Shown in pieces: positions 5,591 through 56,937 of a stretch of 61,194 bases of DNA. How positions within the stretch are numbered: position 1 is the first letter of the stretch; each line of letters begins with the position of its first letter. A program made the position numbers and the translations under genes. The DNA is taken from positions 1-61,194 of the forward strand of contig NW_021832394.1 of the NCBI RefSeq assembly GCF_006345805.1, in the 5' to 3' direction. Source of the DNA: Octopus sinensis (lineage: Eukaryota). The notes beneath the pieces are model-generated. The model searched no databases. It saw nothing but the letters and a program-made list of their open reading frames with translations, and was not told the origin of the DNA.

Positions 5591-5903
5591 ATATGTTTAT
5601 AAACACAAACATGCACACTAACGCAATTTTCTCGCAATTTTGGCAAGCTGCCTCCAAGAATAGTTCTGTTAAGTGATATTCTAAACACTACACCTTAGAC
5701 AGGCCCATGCCAGGAACACCCGCATAATTTGGTGATGTGTGTTTTACACGTAGACGCACCAATTTCTGACTACATTCATACCTCCGTACTCATACGTAGT
5801 TGTACGCATATCCACACACACACACACACATATCCATACGCACACAGATGCACACTGGCAGACACAGACATATATATATATATGTATGTATGTGTGTGTG
5901 TAG

Positions 5904-5965
<62 letters not shown>

Positions 5966-6230
5966 TGGATATATATATACACGAGTTGTATATATGAGTT
6001 TGTTTATGTATATATGAATATACAATTATATATATATACACACAAATATACGCACACACATTCACACACAGATATCTATATCTATCTATTTATATATATA
6101 TGTATATATACATACATATATATTTATATATATATACATATATATATATGAATAAATACATATATATACATAGATGTGCATATCTATACATAGATGTGCA
6201 TATAAGTTATATATATACATGTGTATATAC

Positions 6231-6264
<34 letters not shown>

Positions 6265-6689
6265 TTATTTATGCATGTATGTGTATATATATGCACACAC
6301 ACGCACAAACACGCACACATAGACACACATACATGCACACACACATATATACACATCAATACAGATATGTATACTCATGGAAACATATATGAGTTTTATC
6401 ACTTTCGTAAACACCCATATGAGATTGAAAAAAAAAACGAGAAAATAACGTACGAGATTTATTTACATTAAAACTCTTTGCCATCGAGTGTGTATGTATA
6501 TGTCTGTGTGTGAAGGTGTGTGCGCGCGTACTTGCCTGTGTAAGTTTACATAAACATATATGACTTACCTGAAACAAATACACACACTCACGCATACAAA
6601 GGAATATGTGCGTGTATATATATATATGAGCAGATATATATATATACACGCATATGTATATATATATGAATATATATATATGTATATAT

Positions 6690-6730
<41 letters not shown>

Positions 6731-6766
6731 CATAGGCATATACACATATATTTGCACGTATATATG

Positions 6767-6800
<34 letters not shown>

Positions 6801-6845
6801 CACGCACTCACACGTACAAAGGAATATGTGCGTGTATATATATAT

Positions 6846-6893
<48 letters not shown>

Positions 6894-7601
6894 TATATAT
6901 ATACATATGCATATACACATATATATGCATGTATATATATACATATACGTATACACTTGGCATAGATTTGAATGTGTGTGTACGTATTATCAGTGTATGC
7001 ATATTGGTACGTATGTAAGCGTTTGTGCGTATCTGTGTATGTGTGTGTGTGCATACGTATTACTGCATTTAAACTATTTTCCCCCATTTTCGTTTTATGT
7101 TTGTGAAGCTAAACATTCGCATAATTCCTTAATAGATCAAACACATACACATACACGAATACAACCACACATATATAATATCACACCTGCATCTCATCAA
7201 ACCTCTTTGGAATGCTAAAACCGTAATCGCCTAAGATCCAATCACCACCAATAAACAAACAAGCACAAAAATAAAGAAATGACTGAAATTACCGTATAAC
7301 CAAACCTTCTTTGATGACACTAACTGATCGTGAAAAGTGAGGAATGAACGTGACAGAGAGCCCTATTGCAACATGTTAAGTGTCTCTACTACAACGATGT
7401 GAGAGAACCATTACGTCACAGTGCCCTGAAAAATGTTATGGCTGACTCACACCATGCAATCATTTCGGACATATCAAAAAGATTCTGAAGAATACATACA
7501 TACAAACACAGATGCAGGTATTACATATATATGTAGGTATGTACATTTATGTATGTATGTATGCATATATTTATATATTATATACGCATACACACACACA
7601 C

Positions 7602-7653
<52 letters not shown>

Positions 7654-7732
7654 ATGATATATAAATATATGCATATATACATACATATATGTACATACCT
7701 ACATATATATATGTATATATGCATGCATATAT

Positions 7733-8100
7733 GGGTACAGGACATCAACAAAACGTTGAACACAATAAGAAACAGAAACATAAAAACACAAACAGAAAAC
7801 GAACTTTCTTCGAACAACGAAAAAAACAAAGCGAGAAATGAGACATACAACATAAAGAATATTCCCCTTCTTCAGTTATCCCTGTTTCATTTATTCCGCG
7901 TTACGAAGGTAAGAGCAAGACGCGACTTTGTTGAAACAGTCCTTCCCGCAAAGCACATTAAATAAAATTTGGGATTTTTTGCGGAGGGTGAAAGTGGTAA
8001 CAAGAACAGGACAGTGAGAACAAAACAGTAAAAACAAACGTTGTAGGTTGTTAAGCCAAGACAATAGATAAATTCTGAACGCTAGCAGGACGAGCTTATG
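7733..8100. repeat. Unclassified interspersed repeat-like block between fold-back microsatellites
   Basis: Non-simple sequence starting abruptly after (TA)-type repeats, with self-inverted microsatellite blocks nearby (7526-7706, 8591-8794). Family and strand not assignable. Confidence 0.35.
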
Positions 8101-8339
8101 AAGGAGACAGTATAAACACGTTTTATTTCTTTACGAAGGTAGTAGTCAGAAAGATAGATTCTCTTTAGTCATGTGTCAGCGACAAGAGAGTCTAAGAGGA
8201 GGAGTGAGAGAGAGGGAACGGCGAAGAGGAATGGAGAAGAATAGGGAAGGGTGGGAGAGAAAACCAGAAAGGATGAAGAACAAGAGAGGGAGAAATATAG
8301 ACAGAGAAGAGATAGTAACGATAGAAGAGTGCGCATCGT

Positions 8340-8563
8340 GGATCTTTTCTAAAAGATGGACAGAATTTCTACTTAACTAAATAATTTGAAACTTCGTATA
8401 CTGGTTAAAATTCGAAGAATTAAACTACGTAAAAGTTACAAAATACAATTTTCTCAAAAAAACTAGTTGAAATTAATGTTTTCTTTTGACACATTCTACC
8501 AGTATACGAAGTTTCAAATTATTTAGTTAAGTAGAAATTCTGTCCATCTTTTAGAAATGATCC
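8340..8563. mobile_element. MITE with 66-bp TIRs and 8-bp TSD (Merlin-like)
   Basis: 8340-8405 is the reverse complement of 8498-8563 with one mismatch. CGCATCGT flanks both sides (8332-8339, 8564-8571). Ends are GG...CC. Confidence 0.9.
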
Positions 8564-9647
8564 CGCATCGTAATTATTAAGATAAAACTTACTTGGAAAA
8601 GGATGCGTGGCGTTCGATCATATAATAATAAAAATAATATATAAATATATGCATATATACATATATGTACATAACAACATATATATGTATATATACATAT
8701 ATGTAGATATGTACATATATGTATGTATATATGCATATAATTATATATTATTTACATCATTATATGATCGAAAGGCACGCATCCTTTTCTAAGTATATAT
8801 ATACATATATATATATGCATAAACATAAATGCATATATATATGCATACATAAACACACACACATAAATCGGTATAACTATCATAAGATTCCACCCAATAA
8901 AGAATATATTCTCCTCCTAGCGAAATCTTACTCCTTCAAAGTACTCACAAATACTCGTAAACAACTATATGTTATTACTCAAGCAGACACCTCTTAAATA
9001 AAGAACTATAGAAAAAATATAGAAAAAATATAGAAAAAATAAGCAAAACAGAAAAAACAACAACAAATAAATGAAACTAAACAAAACAAATATCTGATAG
9101 GAGGGAAATGCGCGTGTCATTATATCCCTACACTCTTTCTATGACAATCAATAGGTATCGTGATTTTTCACCTCATAAGGTAGAAAGGTTGTGTCAAAAA
9201 TACAATACTTTCTGCGGCTGCTGAATATATAGCAGTCGGTCACGCGGATTTGGATATGAAAATGACTGAACTAACAAACCCACCGAAATATTACACACAC
9301 ACACGTACGCGCACACATATGTAAGTATTTAAATATGTCGATAGGTATGTATGTATGTATATATATATATATACACAGTCGAAAATTGTGAAGCATGACT
9401 GTCACCACTACTACATGAACCTGAAGATTGCATAATTTAATGCATGAAAGTACTAGTTCAATCAGAATGAACATTTAACATTCTATTAGTTTATTATATT
9501 ATATTATAGTATATTATCTTATATTATATCATTATAAGATTGTAAATAAAACGTGAAAATCAGACAAGGTTGAAATTCCTTTTATTAATATATTCTTCTA
9601 TACACAATCAGCCCCCCGTATATCTATCTATCTATCTATCTATCTAT

Positions 9648-9927
9648 GGGGAAGCTCGTTGTATACATATACATGTGTGTATATGTGTGTGCGCGCGCGC
9701 GTATGTGTGTCTTTGTGTTTGAGTTTGTTTCTCCCACCGCTTGATAACCAGTATTGGTTTGTTTACGTTCTCGGAACTTAGCGGTTCGCCAAAAAAAAAT
9801 AAAGCCGCTAGAATAAGTATTAGATTTAAAAATAAGTACTGAGATCATTTCGTTCAACTTAAACCCTTCAAGTTGGTGCTCCAGCATGGCCGTTGTTCAA
9901 TGACCAGAACAAGCAAAATATAAGAGG
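9648..9927 (+). mobile_element. SINE family A, 3' half
   Basis: AACTTAGCGGTTCG...AGAATAAGTA...GGTGCTCCAGCATGGCCG matches family A. Confidence 0.8.
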
Positions 9928-10361
9928 CAGAAGATTTCGACAAACTAATCTGTTAAGTAACTAAACTGCTAATTCTACGATTAATACTTAATGATTAATT
10001 TAATAATATTAACTAATATTGACTAATCATTTACTATATTCATTAGCTAATCTGTTCGCGAACTCATATGTGAACTAATATTTCAATAAAATAATCTGGT
10101 AATTTGATAATTTTTTCACGCACTAATCCGTTAATTCCAGTTTAGAAGCTAATCCATGAAAGAACTAATCTGTTAAGCGATATCTTAATTGAAGTATCTG
10201 TTAATTAACTAATCTTTTAATCCAACTAATCTGCTCGCCGGTAACTAGAATGTATTAATATTTTTCATTAATTAAGTTGCTAATCAGGTAACTAATTGAC
10301 GAAGTAATAACATACAAACCCACGTATGCAACATCATCATCAGCACCACCATCATCATCAC

Positions 10362-10392
<31 letters not shown>

Positions 10393-10396
10393 GTCA

Positions 10397-10428
<32 letters not shown>

Positions 10429-10429
10429 G

Positions 10430-10464
<35 letters not shown>

Positions 10465-11529
10465 GTCGTCGTCGTCGACAGCGACGACGACGACAACAGC
10501 AACAAGTATAAACGATCCTCTGCATGGTCATCGAATCCGCTCGAACCGTTTATCAGTAGGGCTATTTCTCTAACATAGTTTGCAATTATCTAGAAAACCC
10601 CAGAGCACTACTACTGCTACTACTACAACACTATCCTAACAACACTGTCTCTACCACTCAGTTCAGACACATTTGCAACACTCCAGAATTCCATTACTTT
10701 ACGATCCTATAAACCTTACCTCTTCCAGCAAGTACTGACACATCCACAACAACCCACACCACTACTACATTGCCATCCTCACATCACTCTACCAACTTAT
10801 GTTCGCTCTTCTTAACAGTCACGTGACATCCAGTTATTTTGTTTATTTTGATATGATGTCGGTTAGCGACATTGTCTTTTTTCTACACGCGAAATATACA
10901 GCACCACAGAGTAAAAAAATATATATGGAGAGAAGTAAAGAATGAAAATAATGAGCGAATTTTCTTCATCGTTGAACGGGTTATTACAACTCACATTACG
11001 GTCAGACGCACAAAAAACTTATTTTCCCCTCACTGCGCTCACTTTGAATTCTTTTTTGTGGGAATAACTTTTTATCGTATAAAAATGACTCGTAACTCAT
11101 TTTTACCAAAAAGTGAAAAAAGAATAATAAATAAATGATGATCTCTTGACAGTTTTTTCTGGCACTTTGTGCTACACTTCGCTGTGAGTTGACAGATATT
11201 TGGAAAAATCTCAACGTTGGATTTTGTTTTTATCTCTTGCATTACGCTCCAGCATGCCATATCTACCTTCCACAAAAAAATCCAATATTCACGCTTTTTA
11301 TTTTCACCTGTACTGATTTTTGTCTGGTCATTAGGTATGTTCAATTTTCTTCTTGGGAAGTAAACTTGAATAAACGCAATACTATAGGCCACTATAGTTT
11401 TACCTGCAGAATCAAATTCTTAAATTGTTACTATTTCCATATTTCTTTGCATACGTTTGGATTAATTCCCTACTCAAACCAATTTAGGAATACAATTATA
11501 GCTAATATTCCATATCTGATAAATGTTAC

Positions 11530-13670: not shown

Positions 13671-14380
13671 CAATCACCCTAGTAATGTCACCGCTGACAG
13701 AATGTTGTCCTAATCAGAGAGCAATTGGTCTTTCTTTCTCTACCTTCTCCATGGTGTGTTTCTCCACGGGGAACATTTTAAACTAACTGCATAAATTCAC
13801 ATTGCTATTAATCTAACAACCAACGCAAGTATACATACATTCCTGCATACTTACATACATATATAAACATACATATGCATATATGGTGTATACAAGCACA
13901 CACACACATACGTATAGATGCATGTTAAATTACGATAAATGTAAACAAACAATATTTGCTTTTAGAAGCGTTGAGAGGTCTTGTAAGATTCAAATAAAGA
14001 AATAATTATTCTCAATCACAGAAATGCTGATAGAACAGCAGGAATCGGATAAAATATCCATTGTACGGAAACTGAGGATAGTCCTCAAAGTAAGAAAAGT
14101 TTGGTATATAAAAGTGCAACCATAGGGAAAACAATACATGGGCGCCAAAGAGTTACATCTTTAGAGGCAGGTGCATTCCGTGCACACACATGCGTGCGCG
14201 CCAGAATACACACCCACCCACCCACACATCCACCCACCCACACACCCACACCATGATCTAAGTGAAAGACACGCAGTATAAAAACATCTGGGAGGTAGTG
14301 TAACTTTTATGTAGAAAATTATAAAATAGTCCATATGCATAATCTATACGCGTAAAGTTTTACTTCTAGCAATAATAATA

Positions 14381-14423
<43 letters not shown>

Positions 14424-14439
14424 TAATAATAATAATAAT

Positions 14440-14745
14440 AAAAGACCTGGAAGAAGAGGTAACCAGAATGTGGAATCTAAAAACAGAAACAATTCCTATC
14501 ATAGTAGGTGCATTAGGCATGATAAAAAAATATTCAGACAAATACATAACAAAAACACCAGGACTTACAAACACATATAACATACAGAAAATTGCACTAC
14601 TAGGCACTGCACACATCCTACGCAGAACACTTTCCATACAATAACCATCAGAGCATCACAACAAATCACAGCACATACCCAAGGCACACAGAGCTGCGCC
14701 CGGTAGTGAAGTGAAAGCACGCTATAAAAAATAAAACTACTGAAT
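14440..14745 (+). mobile_element. RLE-type LINE (Dong/R4-like), 3' fragment, subfamily 1
   Basis: KDLEEEVTRMW...IPIIVGALG...QKIALLGTAHILRRTLS*, then 3' UTR. Flanked by (TAA)n on both sides. Confidence 0.85.
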
Positions 14746-14746
14746 G

Positions 14747-14808
<62 letters not shown>

Positions 14809-15805
14809 TAATAAATGGCAAGAAAAACCTCTCTATGGCAAATACCCAAAGAGAGCGAATAATGCAGATATCGACAAAGCCCTGACCCATCAATGGCTAA
14901 TGGCCTCTGGCTTAAAATCTGAAACAGAGGGGTTTATCATAGCAGCTCAAGATCAATGCCTACCAACAAGAAACTACCAGGCCAACATATTAAAGATCAG
15001 AAGCAGTCCAACGTGTCGTGTATGCAAGCAACAAAATGAAACCATTGACCATGTGGTCTCCAAGTGCAGTCTTCTAGCGCCTACAGAGTATCTCAACAGG
15101 CACGATAGAGCTGCACAATATATTCACTGGGTAATCTGTAAAAACCTGGATTTGCCCCATGAAAAAAATTGGTGGGAACACAAACCACCCCCAGTGCTTG
15201 AAAATGACCACATCTCACTCCTCTGGAACTTCACCATTCAAACTGACAGGAAGATAGATGCAAATCGCCAGACATCATATTGAAAGACTTCAAACAAAGA
15301 ACATGCCTCCTCATTGATATGACTGTCCCAATCGATATAAACGTATCTGTCAGGACCTACCAAAAACTGAGCAAATATAAAGATCTTGAAATAGAAATCA
15401 GCAAAATGTGCAAGCTGAAGACTAAAACAATACCTGTTGTCATAGGTGCCATGGGAATGATAGCAAAAGGGGCTGATAGCTACCTAACTCAGATACCAGG
15501 AAACCCAAAAATGGCAGAAGTTCAAAAGATAGTGCTCATGGGAACTGCTCATATCCTACGCAAAATACTCTCTATGTAACCTCAAGGTTTAAAACAACCA
15601 TAATTTTCGGTTTAAAAAAAAAAAAAAAAAAAAAAAAACATCTTTTTTTTTTTAGACATTCATTAGTACAACATCCCCACCCCCCAAATATATGGCACAC
15701 TAGGCATAACAACAACATGAACTTCCAACCCTGTTGTCTCTTGAGGTCTCTGGGTGAGACTTGGAGCCAACTTGTACAAATATAAAGCAAAAGTCAAACA
15801 TAGAA
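14809..15805 (+). mobile_element. RLE-type LINE (Dong/R4-like), 3' ~1 kb, subfamily 2, frameshifted
   Basis: ETEGFIIAAQDQ, CCHC knuckle CRVC...HVVSKC, RHD, then IDMTVP...KLSKYKDL and LMGTAHILRKILS*. Flanked by (TAA)n. Confidence 0.9.
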
Positions 15806-21795: not shown

Positions 21796-23300
21796 TGAAG
21801 TTTAGACAAAGATTTTACTACCGGACGAAGGGTTGCGCCATGGGGGCACCCATGGCAGTTCATTTCGGTAATGTCTTCATGACGAAATTCGAGACACAGT
21901 TACTGAAGACATTCAAATCCCTTAATGGTCAAGAACCAATACTCTGGTATTGAAGACGTATTTTTTGTTTGGGAAGGATCACAAGATAGTTTAATGGATT
22001 TCTTGCACTTCTGTGACTGTTATGCTAGAAACTATGGCTTTAAGTCCAACATAAAATTTACGTCTAGTTTTTCAAAAACTAGTGTTGAATTTTTGGATAC
22101 AAAAATCAAGTTTTCTGGAGGCACAATAGCGACAGTTATTTTGCAAACCCACGTCATTCCACATTTATCTCCACGGCCGCACCGATCATCTTATTCGGTC
22201 AAATCCGAAATCCCAATTTTTGAGGATAAAACATATTTGTAGTGACATAGGGGACTACTGGAAACATGCAAATGCTTTTGTATATCATTATGTCAAACGT
22301 GGTTACAGTGAATCACGATTAAAGGAAATAGCAAATGAAAAGATTAGCAAAGATAGTCAAAGCTTCACGCGTAATTTTAGCAAACACAATACAATAGATG
22401 ACAGAATTCCTTTAGTGATTAACTGGCACCAACATTTCGCTGACATTTTAAAAGTTTTGCATGAAAGTTACCAGCAAGTGGCGAAAATATATGCTCGTTT
22501 CAAACAGATATTTCCTCAACCGCCTATTGTAGCCTTTAGACGAGATAAAAATATAAGAGAATTATTGACCTCTACATCTGACTCCAAGAAAACGAACATT
22601 GGAGTATCTGCACACTGTACCTTAAAGAATAGCCGCAAGAGAGGTAATCCCTGTTCATTGTGCAACAACATGAGTGAAGTGAATTCCATCAGAAATCATA
22701 ACAGAAATGTTATGATTTATACAGAAGGTGGAACGTGTAAAGATTCCCATTTAGTGTACGCTGCAGAGACGTCAGGCACAATAACAGTAGTTCGACAGAA
22801 CTTGCTAAACATTTCGTTTCAAGCGGCTTCAATTTTGAAGAAGACTTGAAAGTGCATGTTCTCAGAAAATATTCTGAATCTACTTCAATTTTACTTCCCA
22901 GAATGTATGAGAAGAAATATGTTTGCGGGTTATTAACATCACGCCCTGGAGGAATAAATAAGATGACAGGAGAATATCCTCAAATTTATGCAAAACTGTT
23001 TGATTAAATATTCTTCTTTCCCTCTATTCCTTTCCTTTTTTCTGTCGTTTTCTTTTCGCTTGTTATAAAATTGTTACTTAAAAACTGATGATGTGATTCC
23101 ATAAACATGTGGACGCTGGTTGCCCTCGTTCATACTTTACGTTTAAATTTCTATAATTTTGAATTTTTATCACTTCTTATTTTGAACTTGACAAAGACAG
23201 ACTTACTGTTGAAATATCGTTCAACTAATAAAATAACTTACAATCGAATCGCGTTCTTCGTCTTGACTGTTTACCTTTGTGAAGAGTTACGTCAATCCTT

Positions 23301-29885: not shown

Positions 29886-29931
<46 letters not shown>

Positions 29932-29935
<4 letters not shown>

Positions 29936-30197
29936 CGGAGATGTACTTGCATAGCAAGTGACTTGATCTGAGATCGTGTGCTGGAACGAAAACAATTGCA
30001 GCGTGGAAGGTGTTTATAAGCAATTTAAGAAACAAACAAAACCGTTAGATTCACTTCAACGTATAAAATTTAATTTGTCAACATATTTTCGTCGCGACCG
30101 CGACCTGTTCACTGACAATTGAATTTAAATGTTGAAGTGAATCTAACGGTTTTGTGTGTTCTTAAATGGCTTATAAACACCTTCCATGCTGCAATTG

Positions 30198-30199
<2 letters not shown>
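29932..30199 (-). mobile_element. Fold-back non-autonomous PLE-like element in (TA)n with a central hammerhead-like fold
   Basis: 29991-30080 is inverted at 30113-30199; the centre is described at 30075-30118. Confidence 0.7.
30075..30118 (-). ncRNA. Minimal hammerhead-like motif, G3-C8 swapped core
   Basis: TTGTCA GTGAACA G GTCGC-GGTC-GCGAC GAAA ATAT GT TGACAA. Position 16.1 is G rather than U in this copy. Confidence 0.55.
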
Positions 30200-30243
<44 letters not shown>

Positions 30244-30335
30244 TATATATATTATATATATATATGTATATGTATATGTATATATATAGTATATGTATAT
30301 GTATATATATATCTATATATATATATATATATATC

Positions 30336-38948: not shown

Positions 38949-40239
38949 CGAGGGACGTTCAATAAGTAATGCCTCTGACCCACTTGCAGTTATTTGATCT
39001 AGCTGAAATTTTGCATGTACAATCATTTATATCTCTAAAGAGTAAGTGGCAAAGTGCAGCTCTGAATGAATTGTGGTTTCTGATTTACAGGTGTTTGAAC
39101 CGAGTCAAGTGTGAAATGGAGCCTGTTGAGTGTCGAGCAGTGATCCGGTTTTTGTATTTGAAAGGACGCACACCACGGGAGACTTTTGATGAAATGAAAG
39201 TAACTTATGGTGATGATGCCCCATCATATGACCTTGTAAAACGCTGGCATCGTGAATTCAAACATGGTCGGAACTCTATGGAAACAGCTCCCAGATCTGG
39301 TCGCCCCCTTCTGCCATTGATGAGGCATCTGTCCGTCATGTTGAGACTGCCATTTTGGAAGATCGACGCATAACTATTCGCCAAATAGCCCATGAGGTCA
39401 AGATTAGTACCGGGTCTGTGGAAACTATCATTCATGACCATTTGCATATGCAAAAGGTGTCTGCCAGATAGATTCCCAGGTTGCTCACGCCTTTCCAGAA
39501 GCAAGATCGCGTCGAGTGCTCGAGGGTGAATTTGGAGATGTGCCAAGAAGATGAGTCAAAACTTTTCAAAAGACTGATTACACAGGATGAAACCTGGGTC
39601 CATCACGATGATCCAGAGACCAAAGCCCAGTCAATGCAGTGGAAGCACCGTGACTCACCCCCTCCAAAGAAGGCAAGGGTGCAGCCCTCCGCTGGCAAGG
39701 TCATGCTCACAGTCTTCTGGGACCAGGACGGAGTAGTGATGACAGATTTCCTGGCAAAGGGTACCACAATTGCAGGAGCCTATAATGCTTCGCTTTTGAG
39801 GAAATTAAGAGAAGTTATCAAAATCAAGAGGCGGGGCAAGATCAGCAAAGACATCCTCCTCCTGCAGGACAACGCTCCGGTCCACAACTCGCTTGTCGCC
39901 AGATCAGAAGCACAGGCGTATGGCTATGAACTCCTCCCAATCCCCCCTACTTTCCTGACCTTGCACCCTCTAATTTTCACCTCTTCCCAATCATGAAGTT
40001 GTTTTTGAAAGGAAAGCGTTTCCCAGATGATGCAGCCTTGATTTCTGAAGACACGTTGAGGTTGGAGGACCAAGCTGGGTTCTTCTACAAAAACGGTCTC
40101 CAGAGCCGCATCAAACGATGGGAAAAATGCGTAACTCTGGGTGGTTCCTATGTAAAAAAAGACTAATAACTGTGCCAAGTTTCGTTGCTCTACTGCTATG
40201 GGAAGTGGGTCAGGGGCATTACTTATTGAACGCCCCTCG
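38949..40239 (+). mobile_element. Full-length mariner transposon (1291 bp, irritans-like), inactive
   Basis: 37-bp TIRs CGAGGG(A/G)CGTTCAATAAGTAATGCC(T/C)CTGACCCACTT with 2 mismatches; TA on both sides. Confidence 0.95.
39116..40166 (+). pseudogene. Mariner D,D34D transposase pseudogene
   Basis: MEPVECRAVIRFL HTH, TQDETWV, LLQDNAP, PDLAPSNF (third D changed to N). Frameshifts and a TAG in the WIPR motif. Confidence 0.92.
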
Positions 40240-40909
40240 TATATTACCGAATTTCTGATATATCCCGGTATTCAAATAATTTTACTTCATCAGAAGCTGG
40301 GTTATGTGACAAAAATAGAAACAAAAATTGCAGAAAATACAAGGCGGGAGAAGTAAAAATAGTGGTAATGGCTACTATTCTGCCAGTGTTTATTAATGCC
40401 ATATTACGCGTCTACCAACTTTGGATCACAAACAACTATAAAATTCAGTAATATATAAGCAAGTATATCTTCATGAACTTTTATCACTAGGCCACAGCTT
40501 CAGAAAAAAAAAACAGACAGGAGGAATGCCACAATCCTGTCTACCTACATATGTCAATTAAAAGATTGCCCCAACAATTTCAACACCAGGTGGTCAACTA
40601 AAATGCAAAGTAAACACTATTTCAATGTCACTAGAAACCTCTACTGAAAAGTATCTTATGCTAAATACAACAAAACACTGAAGCAGTGCGTTAGGAGTAA
40701 CATACAAATGTCTCCACAGAAACAAATATAGCCAAGTCATATAGCGAAGTCAACTTACACACACACACGCAAACATACATACACACACTCACACGCACAC
40801 AAACACGCACACTCAAACATACACACAGTTAAGCACACACACGCATAAATATACATCTAACTATATATAGAGAGACGGATGTATAGATATCTATATAAAT
40901 ATATAAATT

Positions 40910-41289: not shown

Positions 41290-42045
41290 ACGTGGTCTGA
41301 TCAATAAATGTCCAGCCTGTCGCCATAGTAAGAAAGCTAGTGCACGTAGATTGAAGCCACTTGGCAAAGATTGACCTTGAACTCTGTTTTGTATACGCAC
41401 TAAGTTTTAACGTTTATCTCACTTTCGCTGTTTACAGCAGTGCTTGGAAGGAAGGTGTGTAGCGTCTGATCGTCGCATTGACAAAGATAGAGAAAGTTGA
41501 GTAGAAAATCTGCATAAAATTTTGCCAAAAGCTTGGCAATACCTGCTCAGAGGCCTACGCAAAGTTTTCAAGAAAGCTTTCATCCTTCTCGACACAATCA
41601 AGGAGATCTTGTGCAATTGAAACCCCGAGTGTCTTTTTGGTCAGCTGAAAGCAATCCTCGGACAACCTTGGCAGACACGCTTCTCATACCCAAATCTTCA
41701 GTGATAATGGACTGAACTGAACCGTAACTAATCTGCATATCATCGGATAACTCGCGGATGGTGATTCGACGATTCCCCCCCCCCACTGCATTCATATCTG
41801 CGATGCTTTTCTCAGTTCTGTTGGTTGCGGGTCTCAAAGAACGTTCGTTAATATCGACATCTTTTCGGCCGTCTTAGAAACATCTGAACCATTCATACAC
41901 TTGTGTGCAGCTCATGCACTTTCTGCAAATTTGCGTAGGCCTCTGAGCAGGTATCACCATGAGAGCTTTCTCTGTCATGGTTATGCAACGATCACACGCT
42001 ATAAACTTTCCTTCCAAACACTGCTGTAAGCAGCGGATGTTGACT
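41290..42045. mobile_element. Mariner derivative made of two 5' ends in inverted orientation
   Basis: Plus 41290-41570 (TACGTGGTCTGATCAATAA, ICIKFCQKLGNTCSEAYAK) and minus 42045-41565 (same 5' region, RRITIRELS, LGMRSVSAK). The right end abuts a SINE. Confidence 0.75.
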
Positions 42046-42291: not shown

Positions 42292-43074
42292 CATTCAGTA
42301 GTTTTATTTTTATAACGTGCTTTCACTTCACTACCGAGCACAGCTCTGTGTGCCTTGGGTATGTGCTCTGGTTTGCTGTGATCCTCTTATGGTTACTCTA
42401 TTGAAAGTGTTTTGCGTGTGCAGTGCCCAGTAGTGCAATTTTCTGTATGTTGTATATATTTGTAAGACCTGGTGTTTTTGTTATGTAGTAGTTGTCTGAA
42501 TATTTTTTTATCATAACCTAAAGCGCCCACTATGATAGGATTTGTTTGTTTTCAGATTCCTCATTCAAGTAACCACTGTTTCCAGGTCTTTTTATTTTGA
42601 AAGTTTCTCCATTTCTTTTAGAGAAACGTTCTCATCTGCTGGTATTGATACATCAATTAGAAAGCATTTTTTTCTTCTTGATCTCTGACAACTATATCTG
42701 GCCTATTGGCCTTAATTTCTCTATATGTGTGTATTGGCATATCCCAGAGTATGATTGCTTTCTCGTTTTCTGTGACCTTTTCTGGCGTGTGCGTGTGCTT
42801 ATACCATCTGTTTTCTGTTGTTATTCCATAGTGTTGGCATAGCTTCCAGTGTATGTAGGTCCCAACACTGCCGTGTCTGTGAATATATTCCTTCTTAGCC
42901 AGGACTGGGCAGCCAGAGATAATATGATTTATTGTTTCTTGTCCATCTCCACATATTCCGCAGTTACTTATTTTTTTTTTTCATTGTATGTTTTTGGTAT
43001 TTTCTGGTGGGGAGGCTTTGGTCTTGTGTTGCAATTAAAAATCCTTCAGTCTCTGGTTTGAGTCCTTTGCTTTA

Positions 43075-56339: not shown

Positions 56340-56690
56340 CTTATATATGCCCAGTCGAGAACTCCGCATACCGGAAGCCAGCAAGTGTATGGGGTCATCA
56401 GGAAAGAATGCGTGCCGTTTCGGGGCCTACCTCTCGATGGCATCAATGCGCACCGGCTCCCGTCACTGATATGAAGCCCCGCTTGCTAGATCAACAGGTT
56501 ATTAAATAAAGCTCAATATTTCTCTAGCCATCGCTCATCGTCTCTTTTTCACCAAATCCAGTGGCTAGCCTTCTCCACTGTAGTTTGGATATCGGTCATG
56601 GCGGTATTGACTTTACGATAAGTTAGGCCTAACGATAACAACAGTCGTCTCACACTGTGTCCAACAAACCCTCTGCAACCGACTTCGATT
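56340..56690 (-). mobile_element. HERO-like RLE LINE extreme 3' fragment with a structured 3' UTR
   Basis: IEVGCRGFVGHSVRRLLLSLGL...VEKASHWIW, a C-terminal motif I associate with HERO-type elements. Confidence 0.7.
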
Positions 56691-56937
56691 CTTGGTCCAC
56701 ACTTACCTTTCGCTAATCGGATACTCTCTTTCACTCCAAATAATTCCTCTCGTGTATCGTAAATTGAGCTTGATAATTTTCCCAGTTTCTCCACTGTAGA
56801 GCCTGTCATTTTATAAAGAGCTCGACATACTCATTTATATAAAGGTGCTGAGAATGGAACTAAGAAGCAAAGCATCGGAACGATTCATAGTAGTTGAAAA
56901 ATCAACTCTACTACAGCGAGTAAGCTGGACACACACA

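What the first reader, a model, noticed from the sequence alone, without database searches (positions are those of the whole stretch)
29991..30199. G3-C8 swapped hammerhead sitting in the loop of a ~90-bp fold-back
The minus-strand core GUGAACA is the reciprocal swap of CUGAAGA, followed by a perfect GUCGC/GCGAC stem II and GAAA-AUAU. The long inverted arms run right up to stem I, so the inversion junction coincides with the ribozyme helix. This suggests stem I complementarity guided a fold-back or template switch during insertion (inference). Caveats: the 5' strand of stem I may come from the inversion itself, and U16.1 is G in this copy.
Basis: partly seen in the sequence, partly recalled or inferred. 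Interest (0 to 1): 0.7.

Follow-up and report, generated by a model that had tools for sequence, protein, structure and literature searches.

The report
Penelope stump with swapped-core hammerhead
This is a 266-base folded-back stump of a Penelope-type jumping gene, likely from an octopus, built around a small hammerhead-shaped RNA motif whose two paired core letters are swapped across the repeat family; the motif is predicted to cut RNA in intact copies but is likely dead in this one, and the folded-back layout is already known for these elements.

Summary
Observation confirmed: the arms match at 81 of 90 columns and enclose a minus-strand minimal type I hammerhead with G3-C8. The element runs 57 bp further than reported (to about 29934). 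It is the end of a high-copy Penelope-like element (PLE). Its 31 codons match the N-terminus of Octopus proteins that link to full RT + GIY-YIG ORFs. The layout (head-to-head inverted partner, tail at one end, (TA)n target) is the published PLE insertion pattern. Contigs of other copies keep the stem I 5' strand, show no other letter at G3 or C8, have U16.1 (over 98% of depth in each run) and a longer loop II. So the swap is a family trait and this copy is decayed. Hammerheads of related PLEs carry C-G, U-A or A-U at 3-8 (9 of 9 distinct motifs paired). The junction lies in the 6-nt stem I microhomology (0.4% by chance), so microhomology-guided joining is likely. But only 1 of 7 other readable inversion joints falls in stem I, so a ribozyme-guided rule is not supported. 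Cleavage is untested. The new part is a natural G3-C8 core, not found in the papers I could search.

The parts
29889..29933 (.). (TA)n microsatellite, left flank; insertion target (any target-site duplication is unreadable)
   Evidence: sequence; loose ends at 29937 in all three DNA runs are AT-rich (table 7)
29934..29990 (-). 57-bp one-sided 'tail' at the element's outer 3' end, absent from the inverted arm
   Evidence: covered at the highest depth; matches the PLE tail in PMC8557442 and PMC11167929 (30-40 bp there)
29991..30080 (-). Direct copy: from the predicted ribozyme cut site through the 5' leader into the ORF start (left arm)
29932..30024 (-). First 31 codons of the PLE ORF (start codon is ATT in this arm; ATG in the family and in the right arm)
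   Evidence: 94% identical to P0002 residues 1-31; 30022 A>C in about 88-99% of depth in the four runs
30075..30118 (-). Minimal type I hammerhead: stem I 6 bp, G3-C8 core, extra G at 9.1, 5-bp stem II, palindromic stem III broken by G16.1 in this copy, predicted cut between 30081 and 30080
   Evidence: family has U16.1 and a longer loop II
30113..30118 (.). Junction microhomology (TGACAA on +): reads both as the native stem I 5' strand and as the first bases of the inverted arm
   Evidence: table 8 (pieces 16, 24, 30, 32 stop at 30118)
30113..30199 (+). Inverted 5'-truncated copy (right arm): starts at the predicted cut site within 6 nt, contains the ATG at 30166, ends 89 nt downstream of the cut
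30200..30260 (.). (TA)n microsatellite, right flank
   Evidence: sequence

Best explanation
This is a 266-bp stump of a high-copy Penelope-like retroelement, likely from an octopus, inserted in a (TA)n tract with a head-to-head inverted partner and a one-sided tail; its minimal hammerhead carries a family-wide G3-C8 core that is predicted to cut only as a dimer, and the inverted arm was likely made during insertion by annealing at the 6-nt stem I repeat. Shown: PLE identity, G3/C8/U16.1 as the family state, decay of this copy (G16.1, shortened loop II), and the junction inside the stem I microhomology. Inferred: reverse transcription began at the tail end and stopped at the outer edge of stem I. 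The cDNA 3' end then paired with the stem I complement 33 nt back on the same strand and primed the mirror arm, which ends at the element's second 3' end. Stem I acted as one convenient short inverted repeat among several; ribozyme chemistry is not needed. Confidence in the PLE identity and the natural G3-C8 core alone is about 0.95; the figure given includes the fold-back route.
For: PLE identity: the 31 codons hit P0001 (Octopus bimaculoides, 81%, E 5e-5) and match P0002 (O. sinensis) at 94%. P0002 residues 25-223 align to the full-length ORF P0005 at E 4e-25. Of the 29 long homologues, 29 have DKS and YxDD motifs, 25 a C-x(2-5)-C-x2-C linker and 24 a YxGE[TS] motif. Pfam at E<=0.1 finds RVT_1 in 4 and GIY-YIG in 3 of 26 aligned members. 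High copy: 6,443-10,682 contigs laid per DNA run. Family state: 30082 C>A in over 99% of depth in three DNA runs and 98% in the fourth run; no other letter listed at 30106-30112; loose ends and insertions at 30096 show a longer loop II. Covariation: a descriptor that did not ask for 3-8 pairing gave 10 hits (9 distinct) in 80 related PLE loci (382,752 bases), all Watson-Crick at 3-8: C-G 5, U-A 3, A-U 1. All have the extra 9.1 purine and a palindromic stem III. Layout: inverted 5'-truncated copy, tail at one end only and (TA)n targets are described in PMC8557442; palindromic junctions and self-priming in PMC3846280. A second 3' end at 29992 followed by TA repeats is seen in two other records (table 5c). 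Microhomology >=6 nt occurs at 0.4% of random breakpoint pairs. Stem I is the lowest-energy fold of the cDNA strand.
Against: The route is not determined. The same junction results from two cDNAs joined at stem I, or from a later deletion between two TGACAA direct repeats. The DNA hairpin is weak (-5.7 kcal/mol, z -0.9). Other joints in the family are scattered (1 of 7 in stem I), and only 15 of 90 joints and 12 of 39 'letters between' rows were shown. No listed contig spans the window's junction. Depth over the core (0.3-7 thousand) is far below depth at 16.1 (9-309 thousand), and 2 of 42 variant rows were hidden. Relatives have only 1-4 contiguous stem I pairs, and a stricter descriptor found none in 28 loci. 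No cleavage or expression data. No DNA joining this hammerhead to the 3' end of its own ORF was seen.
Confidence: 0.6

Rival explanations
1. Same PLE, but the inverted arm was copied from a self-cleaved RNA. Its cDNA ended at the cut site, and that end annealed to the stem I complement on a second cDNA made from uncleaved RNA (twin priming). The junction would be a fossil of cleavage in the cell.
For: The inverted arm's 5' end coincides with the predicted cut (30081/30080) within the 6-nt ambiguity. One other joint (X3, 29973>30117) starts its inverted arm 1-3 nt from the cut with a different partner end (table 5c). Paired 3-8 in 9 of 9 related motifs suggests the active fold is selected.
Against: The other 6 readable joints start +9/10, +18, +24, +32, about +40 nt from the cut, or inside stem II; 1 of 7 is about what even scatter gives. 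No RNA reads begin or end at the cut site of the anole PLE, and ribozyme mutants still insert in vitro (PMC11167929).
Confidence: 0.18
2. Same PLE, but the insertion first had longer head-to-head copies. The centre of that unstable palindrome was later deleted between the two TGACAA direct repeats (stem I 5' strand of one copy, stem I 3' strand of the other).
For: The copy is old (arms differ at 9 of 90 columns) and already has a deletion in loop II. Microhomology-mediated deletions are reported in Penelope copies (PMC3846280). It explains the 6-nt microhomology equally well.
Against: No longer allele was seen; no listed contig covers this locus, so this is untested. It needs an extra event.
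Confidence: 0.17
3. A miniature inverted-repeat DNA transposon with 90-bp terminal repeats, the hammerhead-like core being a chance look-alike.
For: Long inverted arms, a TA flank and small size look like a MITE. Rfam gives no hammerhead match.
Against: The arms encode the N-terminus of a PLE RT-endonuclease. One arm has a 57-bp tail. No listed contig spans the whole fold-back, although thousands cover single arms. The motif fits the PLE hammerhead anatomy and 0 of 60 shuffles reproduce it.
Confidence: 0.02
4. An assembly or library fold-back artefact.
For: No listed contig spans the junction.
Against: Chimeric fold-backs give near-identical arms. Here each arm has its own differences from the family: left 30022 and 30035, right just after the junction.
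Confidence: 0.03

Closest known systems
Minimal (dimeric) type I hammerheads in the pLTRs of metazoan PLEs (Cervera and de la Pena 2014, PMC4209133)
   Same: Type I; extra nucleotide between 9 and 10.1; G10.1-C11.1; short palindromic stem III; 5-6 bp helices; mostly found as solo truncated copies; pairs on opposite strands noted.
   Different: Core pair is G3-C8. That paper reports C3-G8 and a U3-A8 variant only, in the two parts of the text read and in the supplement passages returned; one supplement file was not searchable.
EN+ PLE insertion architecture (Craig et al. 2021, PMC8557442; Arkhipova et al. 2013, PMC3846280)
   Same: Inverted 5'-truncated copy head to head with the direct copy, tail at one end only, pLTR including the first codons, microsatellite target, short overlap or palindrome at the junction.
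   Different: Reduced to 266 bp with no ORF body; tail 57 bp rather than 30-40; junction sits exactly on hammerhead stem I.
Neptune/Nematis-type PLEs (zinc-finger-like linker between RT and GIY-YIG)
   Same: 25 of 29 long homologues carry C-x(2-5)-C-x2-C; in the two sequences read (P0005, P0009) it lies between RT and endonuclease; microsatellite insertion bias.
   Different: Clade not placed by a tree; no named reference proteins were available.
Engineered C3G/G8C hammerheads (Frangieh et al. 2024, PMC11167929) and natural U3-A8 cores (Perreault et al. 2011, PMC3088659)
   Same: Watson-Crick exchange at 3-8; the double mutant partly restores cleavage of the anole PLE ribozyme.
   Different: Here G3-C8 is the natural state of an amplified family, with U rather than C at position 17.

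Membership tests
EN+ Penelope-like element | ORF with PLE-type RT and C-terminal GIY-YIG endonuclease | tested here: met
   Met for the family through a protein chain (window codons to P0002 to P0005). This copy itself holds only 31 codons.
EN+ Penelope-like element | pLTR containing a hammerhead upstream of the first codons | tested here: met
   Predicted cut lies 56 nt upstream of the ATG. Related loci have the motif about 100-300 nt after the ORF match.
EN+ Penelope-like element | Inverted 5'-truncated partner and one-sided tail | tested here: met
   compare PMC8557442.
EN+ Penelope-like element | Target-site duplication or microsatellite target | tested here: inconclusive
   (TA)n on both sides; a duplication cannot be read.
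Neptune/Nematis clade | Phylogenetic placement of the RT | not tested
   Linker motif present in homologues; no tree built, no named references.
Minimal type I hammerhead | Core U4 G5 A6, A9, G12 A13 A14 with a Watson-Crick 3-8 pair | tested here: met
   G3-C8 in the window; no other letter listed at 30106-30112 in four runs.
Minimal type I hammerhead | A15.1-U16.1 pair, H17 and palindromic stem III | tested here: not met
   Not met in this copy (G16.1). Met in the family: U16.1 in 98 to over 99% of depth, giving a 6-nt palindrome and U17.
Minimal type I hammerhead | Stems I and II native to the element | tested here: met
   Stem II 5 bp; stem I 5' strand kept in contigs of other copies (pieces 16, 24, 30, 32).
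Minimal type I hammerhead | Self-cleavage (as a dimer) | not testable with these tools
   No assay; only contigs were available, which cannot show RNA ends.
Non-LTR retrozyme | Tandem non-coding units, each with a type I hammerhead | tested here: not met
   Single motif, no tandem copy in the window; downstream sequence is an ORF start.
MITE | Non-coding terminal inverted repeats, with the whole unit repeated | tested here: not met
   Arms encode a PLE N-terminus; no listed contig spans the whole unit.

The most novel reading that the evidence does not exclude
A natural G3-C8 hammerhead, in a PLE lineage whose ribozymes use all four Watson-Crick pairs at 3-8, cleaves the element's RNA in the cell. 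The inverted arm here is a DNA copy of the 3' cleavage product, joined through stem I, so such junctions are a genomic record of PLE ribozyme activity and of how PLE inverted ends are built.
Probability: 0.18. Interest if true: 0.72.

Novelty: new variant of a known kind. Interest (0 to 1): 0.42.

Why it matters
Whether PLE hammerheads cut in vivo is open: PMC8557442 calls their function unclear, and PMC11167929 found no RNA reads ending at the cut site. The 3-8 pair belongs to the active fold (established knowledge; PMC3088659). Finding it as G-C in an amplified family, and as C-G, U-A or A-U in related elements, is comparative evidence that the catalytic fold is under selection. It extends natural core variation beyond the U3-A8 in the papers read. 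It also means C3-G8-based searches miss whole families (Rfam missed this one). A family that lays thousands of contigs per run offers a cheap test of whether 5' ends or inversion junctions pile up at the cut site or at stem I. The fold-back itself is ordinary PLE architecture.

Tried and rejected
No own genome was held, so copies could not be collected directly. Exact-pattern scans gave 9 prokaryote and 4 viral matches to the core motif, all chance hits without stem II or arm similarity. An arm pattern gave 0 matches in metagenome, genome and viral contigs. Rfam: only microRNA-type hairpin matches far below gathering score in the window and nothing useful in 10 related loci. Run search: no RNA holder on record; one run guessed to be RNA laid 1,229 contigs, which is no evidence on expression or cleavage. 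'Opposite strand' joints at 30016-30041 to 30150-30159 were rejected as mapping artefacts of the two arms around an A-run. Joints with 'between: not known' (3 rows) were left out of the breakpoint tally. Whether both arms came from one template could not be settled from contig depths. A strict descriptor needing >=4 contiguous stem I pairs found 0 motifs in 28 related loci. The descriptor was written after motifs were seen by eye; it did not ask for 3-8 pairing and misses other hammerheads in the window. The MAFFT alignment of the motifs shifted the window row by one column and was not used for pair counts. Pfam found nothing in 7 single long proteins at E<=0.01; PDB sequence searches gave nothing for P0003 and one weak RT match for the profile. 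No related loci in viral contigs. Earlier-finding look-ups by sequence and place were empty. Lunse et al. 2017 and Przybilski and Hammann 2007 are not held.

Full report
Observation. The window is AT-rich and full of microsatellites. On the minus strand, 30118-30075 reads as a minimal type I hammerhead: stem I UUGUCA/UGACAA, core G3 U4 G5 A6 A7 C8 A9, an extra G, stem II GUCGC/GCGAC, GAA, then A15.1 to G16.1, and U17 (numbering is the standard one, recalled). The arms 29991-30080 and 30113-30199 match at 81 of 90 columns. The RNA fold has z -17.95 and its long helix runs straight into stem I. In 60 block-shuffled windows a descriptor gave 0.05 hits per window with a paired 3-8, and none with both stems at 5 bp or more. 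The element extends 57 bp past the left arm to about 29934 and lies in a (TA)n tract.

What the element is. The minus strand from 30024 gives 31 codons. A search of 1.84 billion representatives returned one hit, an Octopus bimaculoides protein (81%, E 5e-5). That protein led to O. sinensis P0002, whose first 31 residues match the window at 94%, and to O. vulgaris P0003. P0003 found 29 ORFs of 680-1222 aa, and P0002 aligns directly to one of them over residues 25-223 (E 4e-25). All 29 have DKS and YxDD, 25 have a C-x(2-5)-C-x2-C motif and 24 have YxGE[TS]. Pfam at E<=0.1 matches RVT_1 in 4 and GIY-YIG in 3 of the 26 aligned proteins; 7 single proteins gave nothing at E<=0.01. This is the layout of an endonuclease-bearing PLE with the linker described for Neptune and Nematis (PMC8557442, passages); the clade was not placed by a tree. 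The window is therefore likely from an octopus (inference from the named proteins).

Other copies. No genome was held. Twenty of 24 listed runs, in three coded organisms and 13 studies, hold part of the stretch. I laid 4 of them at 80% likeness (contigs only). The three DNA runs laid 10,682, 8,590 and 6,443 contigs. At 30082 over 99% of depth in these runs (98% in the fourth) reads A on the plus strand, which is U16.1 and makes stem III the palindrome AAUAUU. Loose ends and insertions behind 30096 show that loop II is longer in the family, apparently by 5 nt. No other letter is listed at 30106-30112, so G3 and C8 appear to be the family state; depth there is only 0.3-7 thousand and 2 of 42 variant rows were hidden. 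Four listed pieces reach 30118 and stop there, with 272, 14, 5 and 0 letters left over. The first (depth 210) does not continue into the arm, so TTGTCA before the core is native. Record orientation was inferred from a piece whose depth matches a listed joint. This copy has lost U16.1, a position usually considered essential (PMC3088659, passage), and is likely dead.

Covariation. An alignment of the long proteins fetched 79 metagenome loci and 1 from a genome bin. A descriptor that did not ask for 3-8 pairing found 10 hits in their 382,752 bases, 9 distinct because L016 has the motif at both ends. All pair at 3-8: C-G in L015, L029, L055, L056 and L086; U-A in L016, L017 and L027; A-U in L019. 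All have the extra purine at 9.1 and a palindromic stem III, as listed for PLE hammerheads in PMC4209133 (parts 1-2 of 4 read). Against this: contiguous stem I in these relatives is only 1-4 bp (1 in L019, the weakest), a stricter descriptor found none in 28 loci, and the descriptor was written after a look. The window family has U17. PMC3884650 (passage) notes that a G3-C8 variant does better when position 17 is not C, so U17 may be a compatible partner (inference, one family).

The fold-back. An inverted 5'-truncated copy next to the direct copy, a tail at one end only and (TA)n targets are the published PLE pattern (PMC8557442). Palindromic junctions were read as self-priming in PMC3846280 (passages). 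Two adjacent RT start sites explain the tail in PMC11167929 (parts 1-2 of 4). Here the two outer ends are about 29934 and 29991/30199; two other records also end at 29992 next to TA repeats (table 5c; they may be one locus). The inner junction lies in the 6-nt stem I repeat, so the direct copy starts at the outer edge of stem I and the inverted copy starts at the predicted cut site. Random breakpoint pairs reach 6 nt of inverted microhomology 0.4% of the time, so microhomology was likely used; but 11 such sites exist in the 185-nt element.

Other junctions. Seven other head-to-head joints with readable middles start their inverted arm at +1-3, +9-10, +18, +24, +32 and about +40 nt from the cut, and once inside stem II (tables 5 and 5c, mapped). 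Only 15 of 90 joints and 12 of 39 'between' rows were shown, and 3 joints of unknown middle were left out. One of 7 in stem I is about what even scatter gives. Inverted junctions in L015 and L029 lie 33 nt upstream of the core and within the ORF end. So stem I guidance fits this copy but is not shown as a rule. I favour cDNA fold-back at stem I during insertion. Twin priming with a cleaved RNA and a later deletion between the two TGACAA repeats give the same sequence and are not excluded. An artefact is unlikely, since each arm has its own changes.

Comparison and novelty. Eight searches of the held library returned no report of a natural G3-C8 hammerhead or of Octopus PLE hammerheads among the listings and passages seen. 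PMC3088659 and PMC4209133 report U3-A8; the C3G/G8C double mutant partly rescues the anole PLE ribozyme. A supplement search of PMC4209133 returned 4 passages with only C3-G8 cores, and one file was not searchable. Lunse et al. 2017 (seen only as a reference in PMC6765202) and Przybilski and Hammann 2007 (reference only) are not held, and the first may already list such cores; repeat libraries were not checked. PMC13282606 (passages) lists Penelope families in O. vulgaris with no mention of ribozymes; bioRxiv 10.64898/2026.07.22.740005 (part 1 of 5) covers tandem retrozymes, which this is not. Earlier AI notes of this scan describe similar PLE stumps and G3-C8 candidates in other genomes; they are leads, not support. 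Verdict: a real, decayed PLE stump of known architecture, carrying a likely new natural core variant; interest 0.42.

Noticed in passing
window 21797-23230 (+): Broken PLE of another family (RT and GIY-YIG-like motifs read), followed at 23188 by a U3-A8 minimal hammerhead with 5-bp stem II and 6-bp stem I.
   Followed up: partly
window 23417, 46386, 56181 (+); 20638 (-): C3-G8 hammerhead-like cores with an extra base at 9.1; 23417 and 56181 belong to one repeat family; 20638 is weak.
   Followed up: no
L019:2810-2838 (+): Candidate A3-U8 hammerhead core behind a related PLE ORF, with palindromic stem III but only 1 contiguous stem I pair; an intron-acceptor-like stretch lies just upstream.
   Followed up: partly
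L015:1-61, L029:2141-2265, L033:305-452: Inverted partial copies upstream of or around related PLE ORFs; the junctions of L015 and L029 are not at stem I, L033 was not mapped.
   Followed up: partly
L014:493-1165 and 5610-6053: 105-bp tandem repeats at the end of a related PLE ORF; no hammerhead found there by the descriptors used.
   Followed up: no
L093: A PLE RT-endonuclease contig inside a Desulfobulbaceae genome bin, likely host contamination.
   Followed up: no
P0002 (protein record): The O. sinensis gene model joins the PLE N-terminus to a methyltransferase domain: a chimeric annotation or an exonised PLE.
   Followed up: no
window 38966-40271, 41598-42029; 14330-15579, 42657-42980; 56549-56830: Mariner-like transposase fragments and non-LTR retrotransposon C-terminal fragments, judged by eye.
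   Followed up: no
window 29934-30199 family: Most listed variants among copies are C>T or G>A, many at CpG sites, suggesting methylation-driven decay.
   Followed up: no
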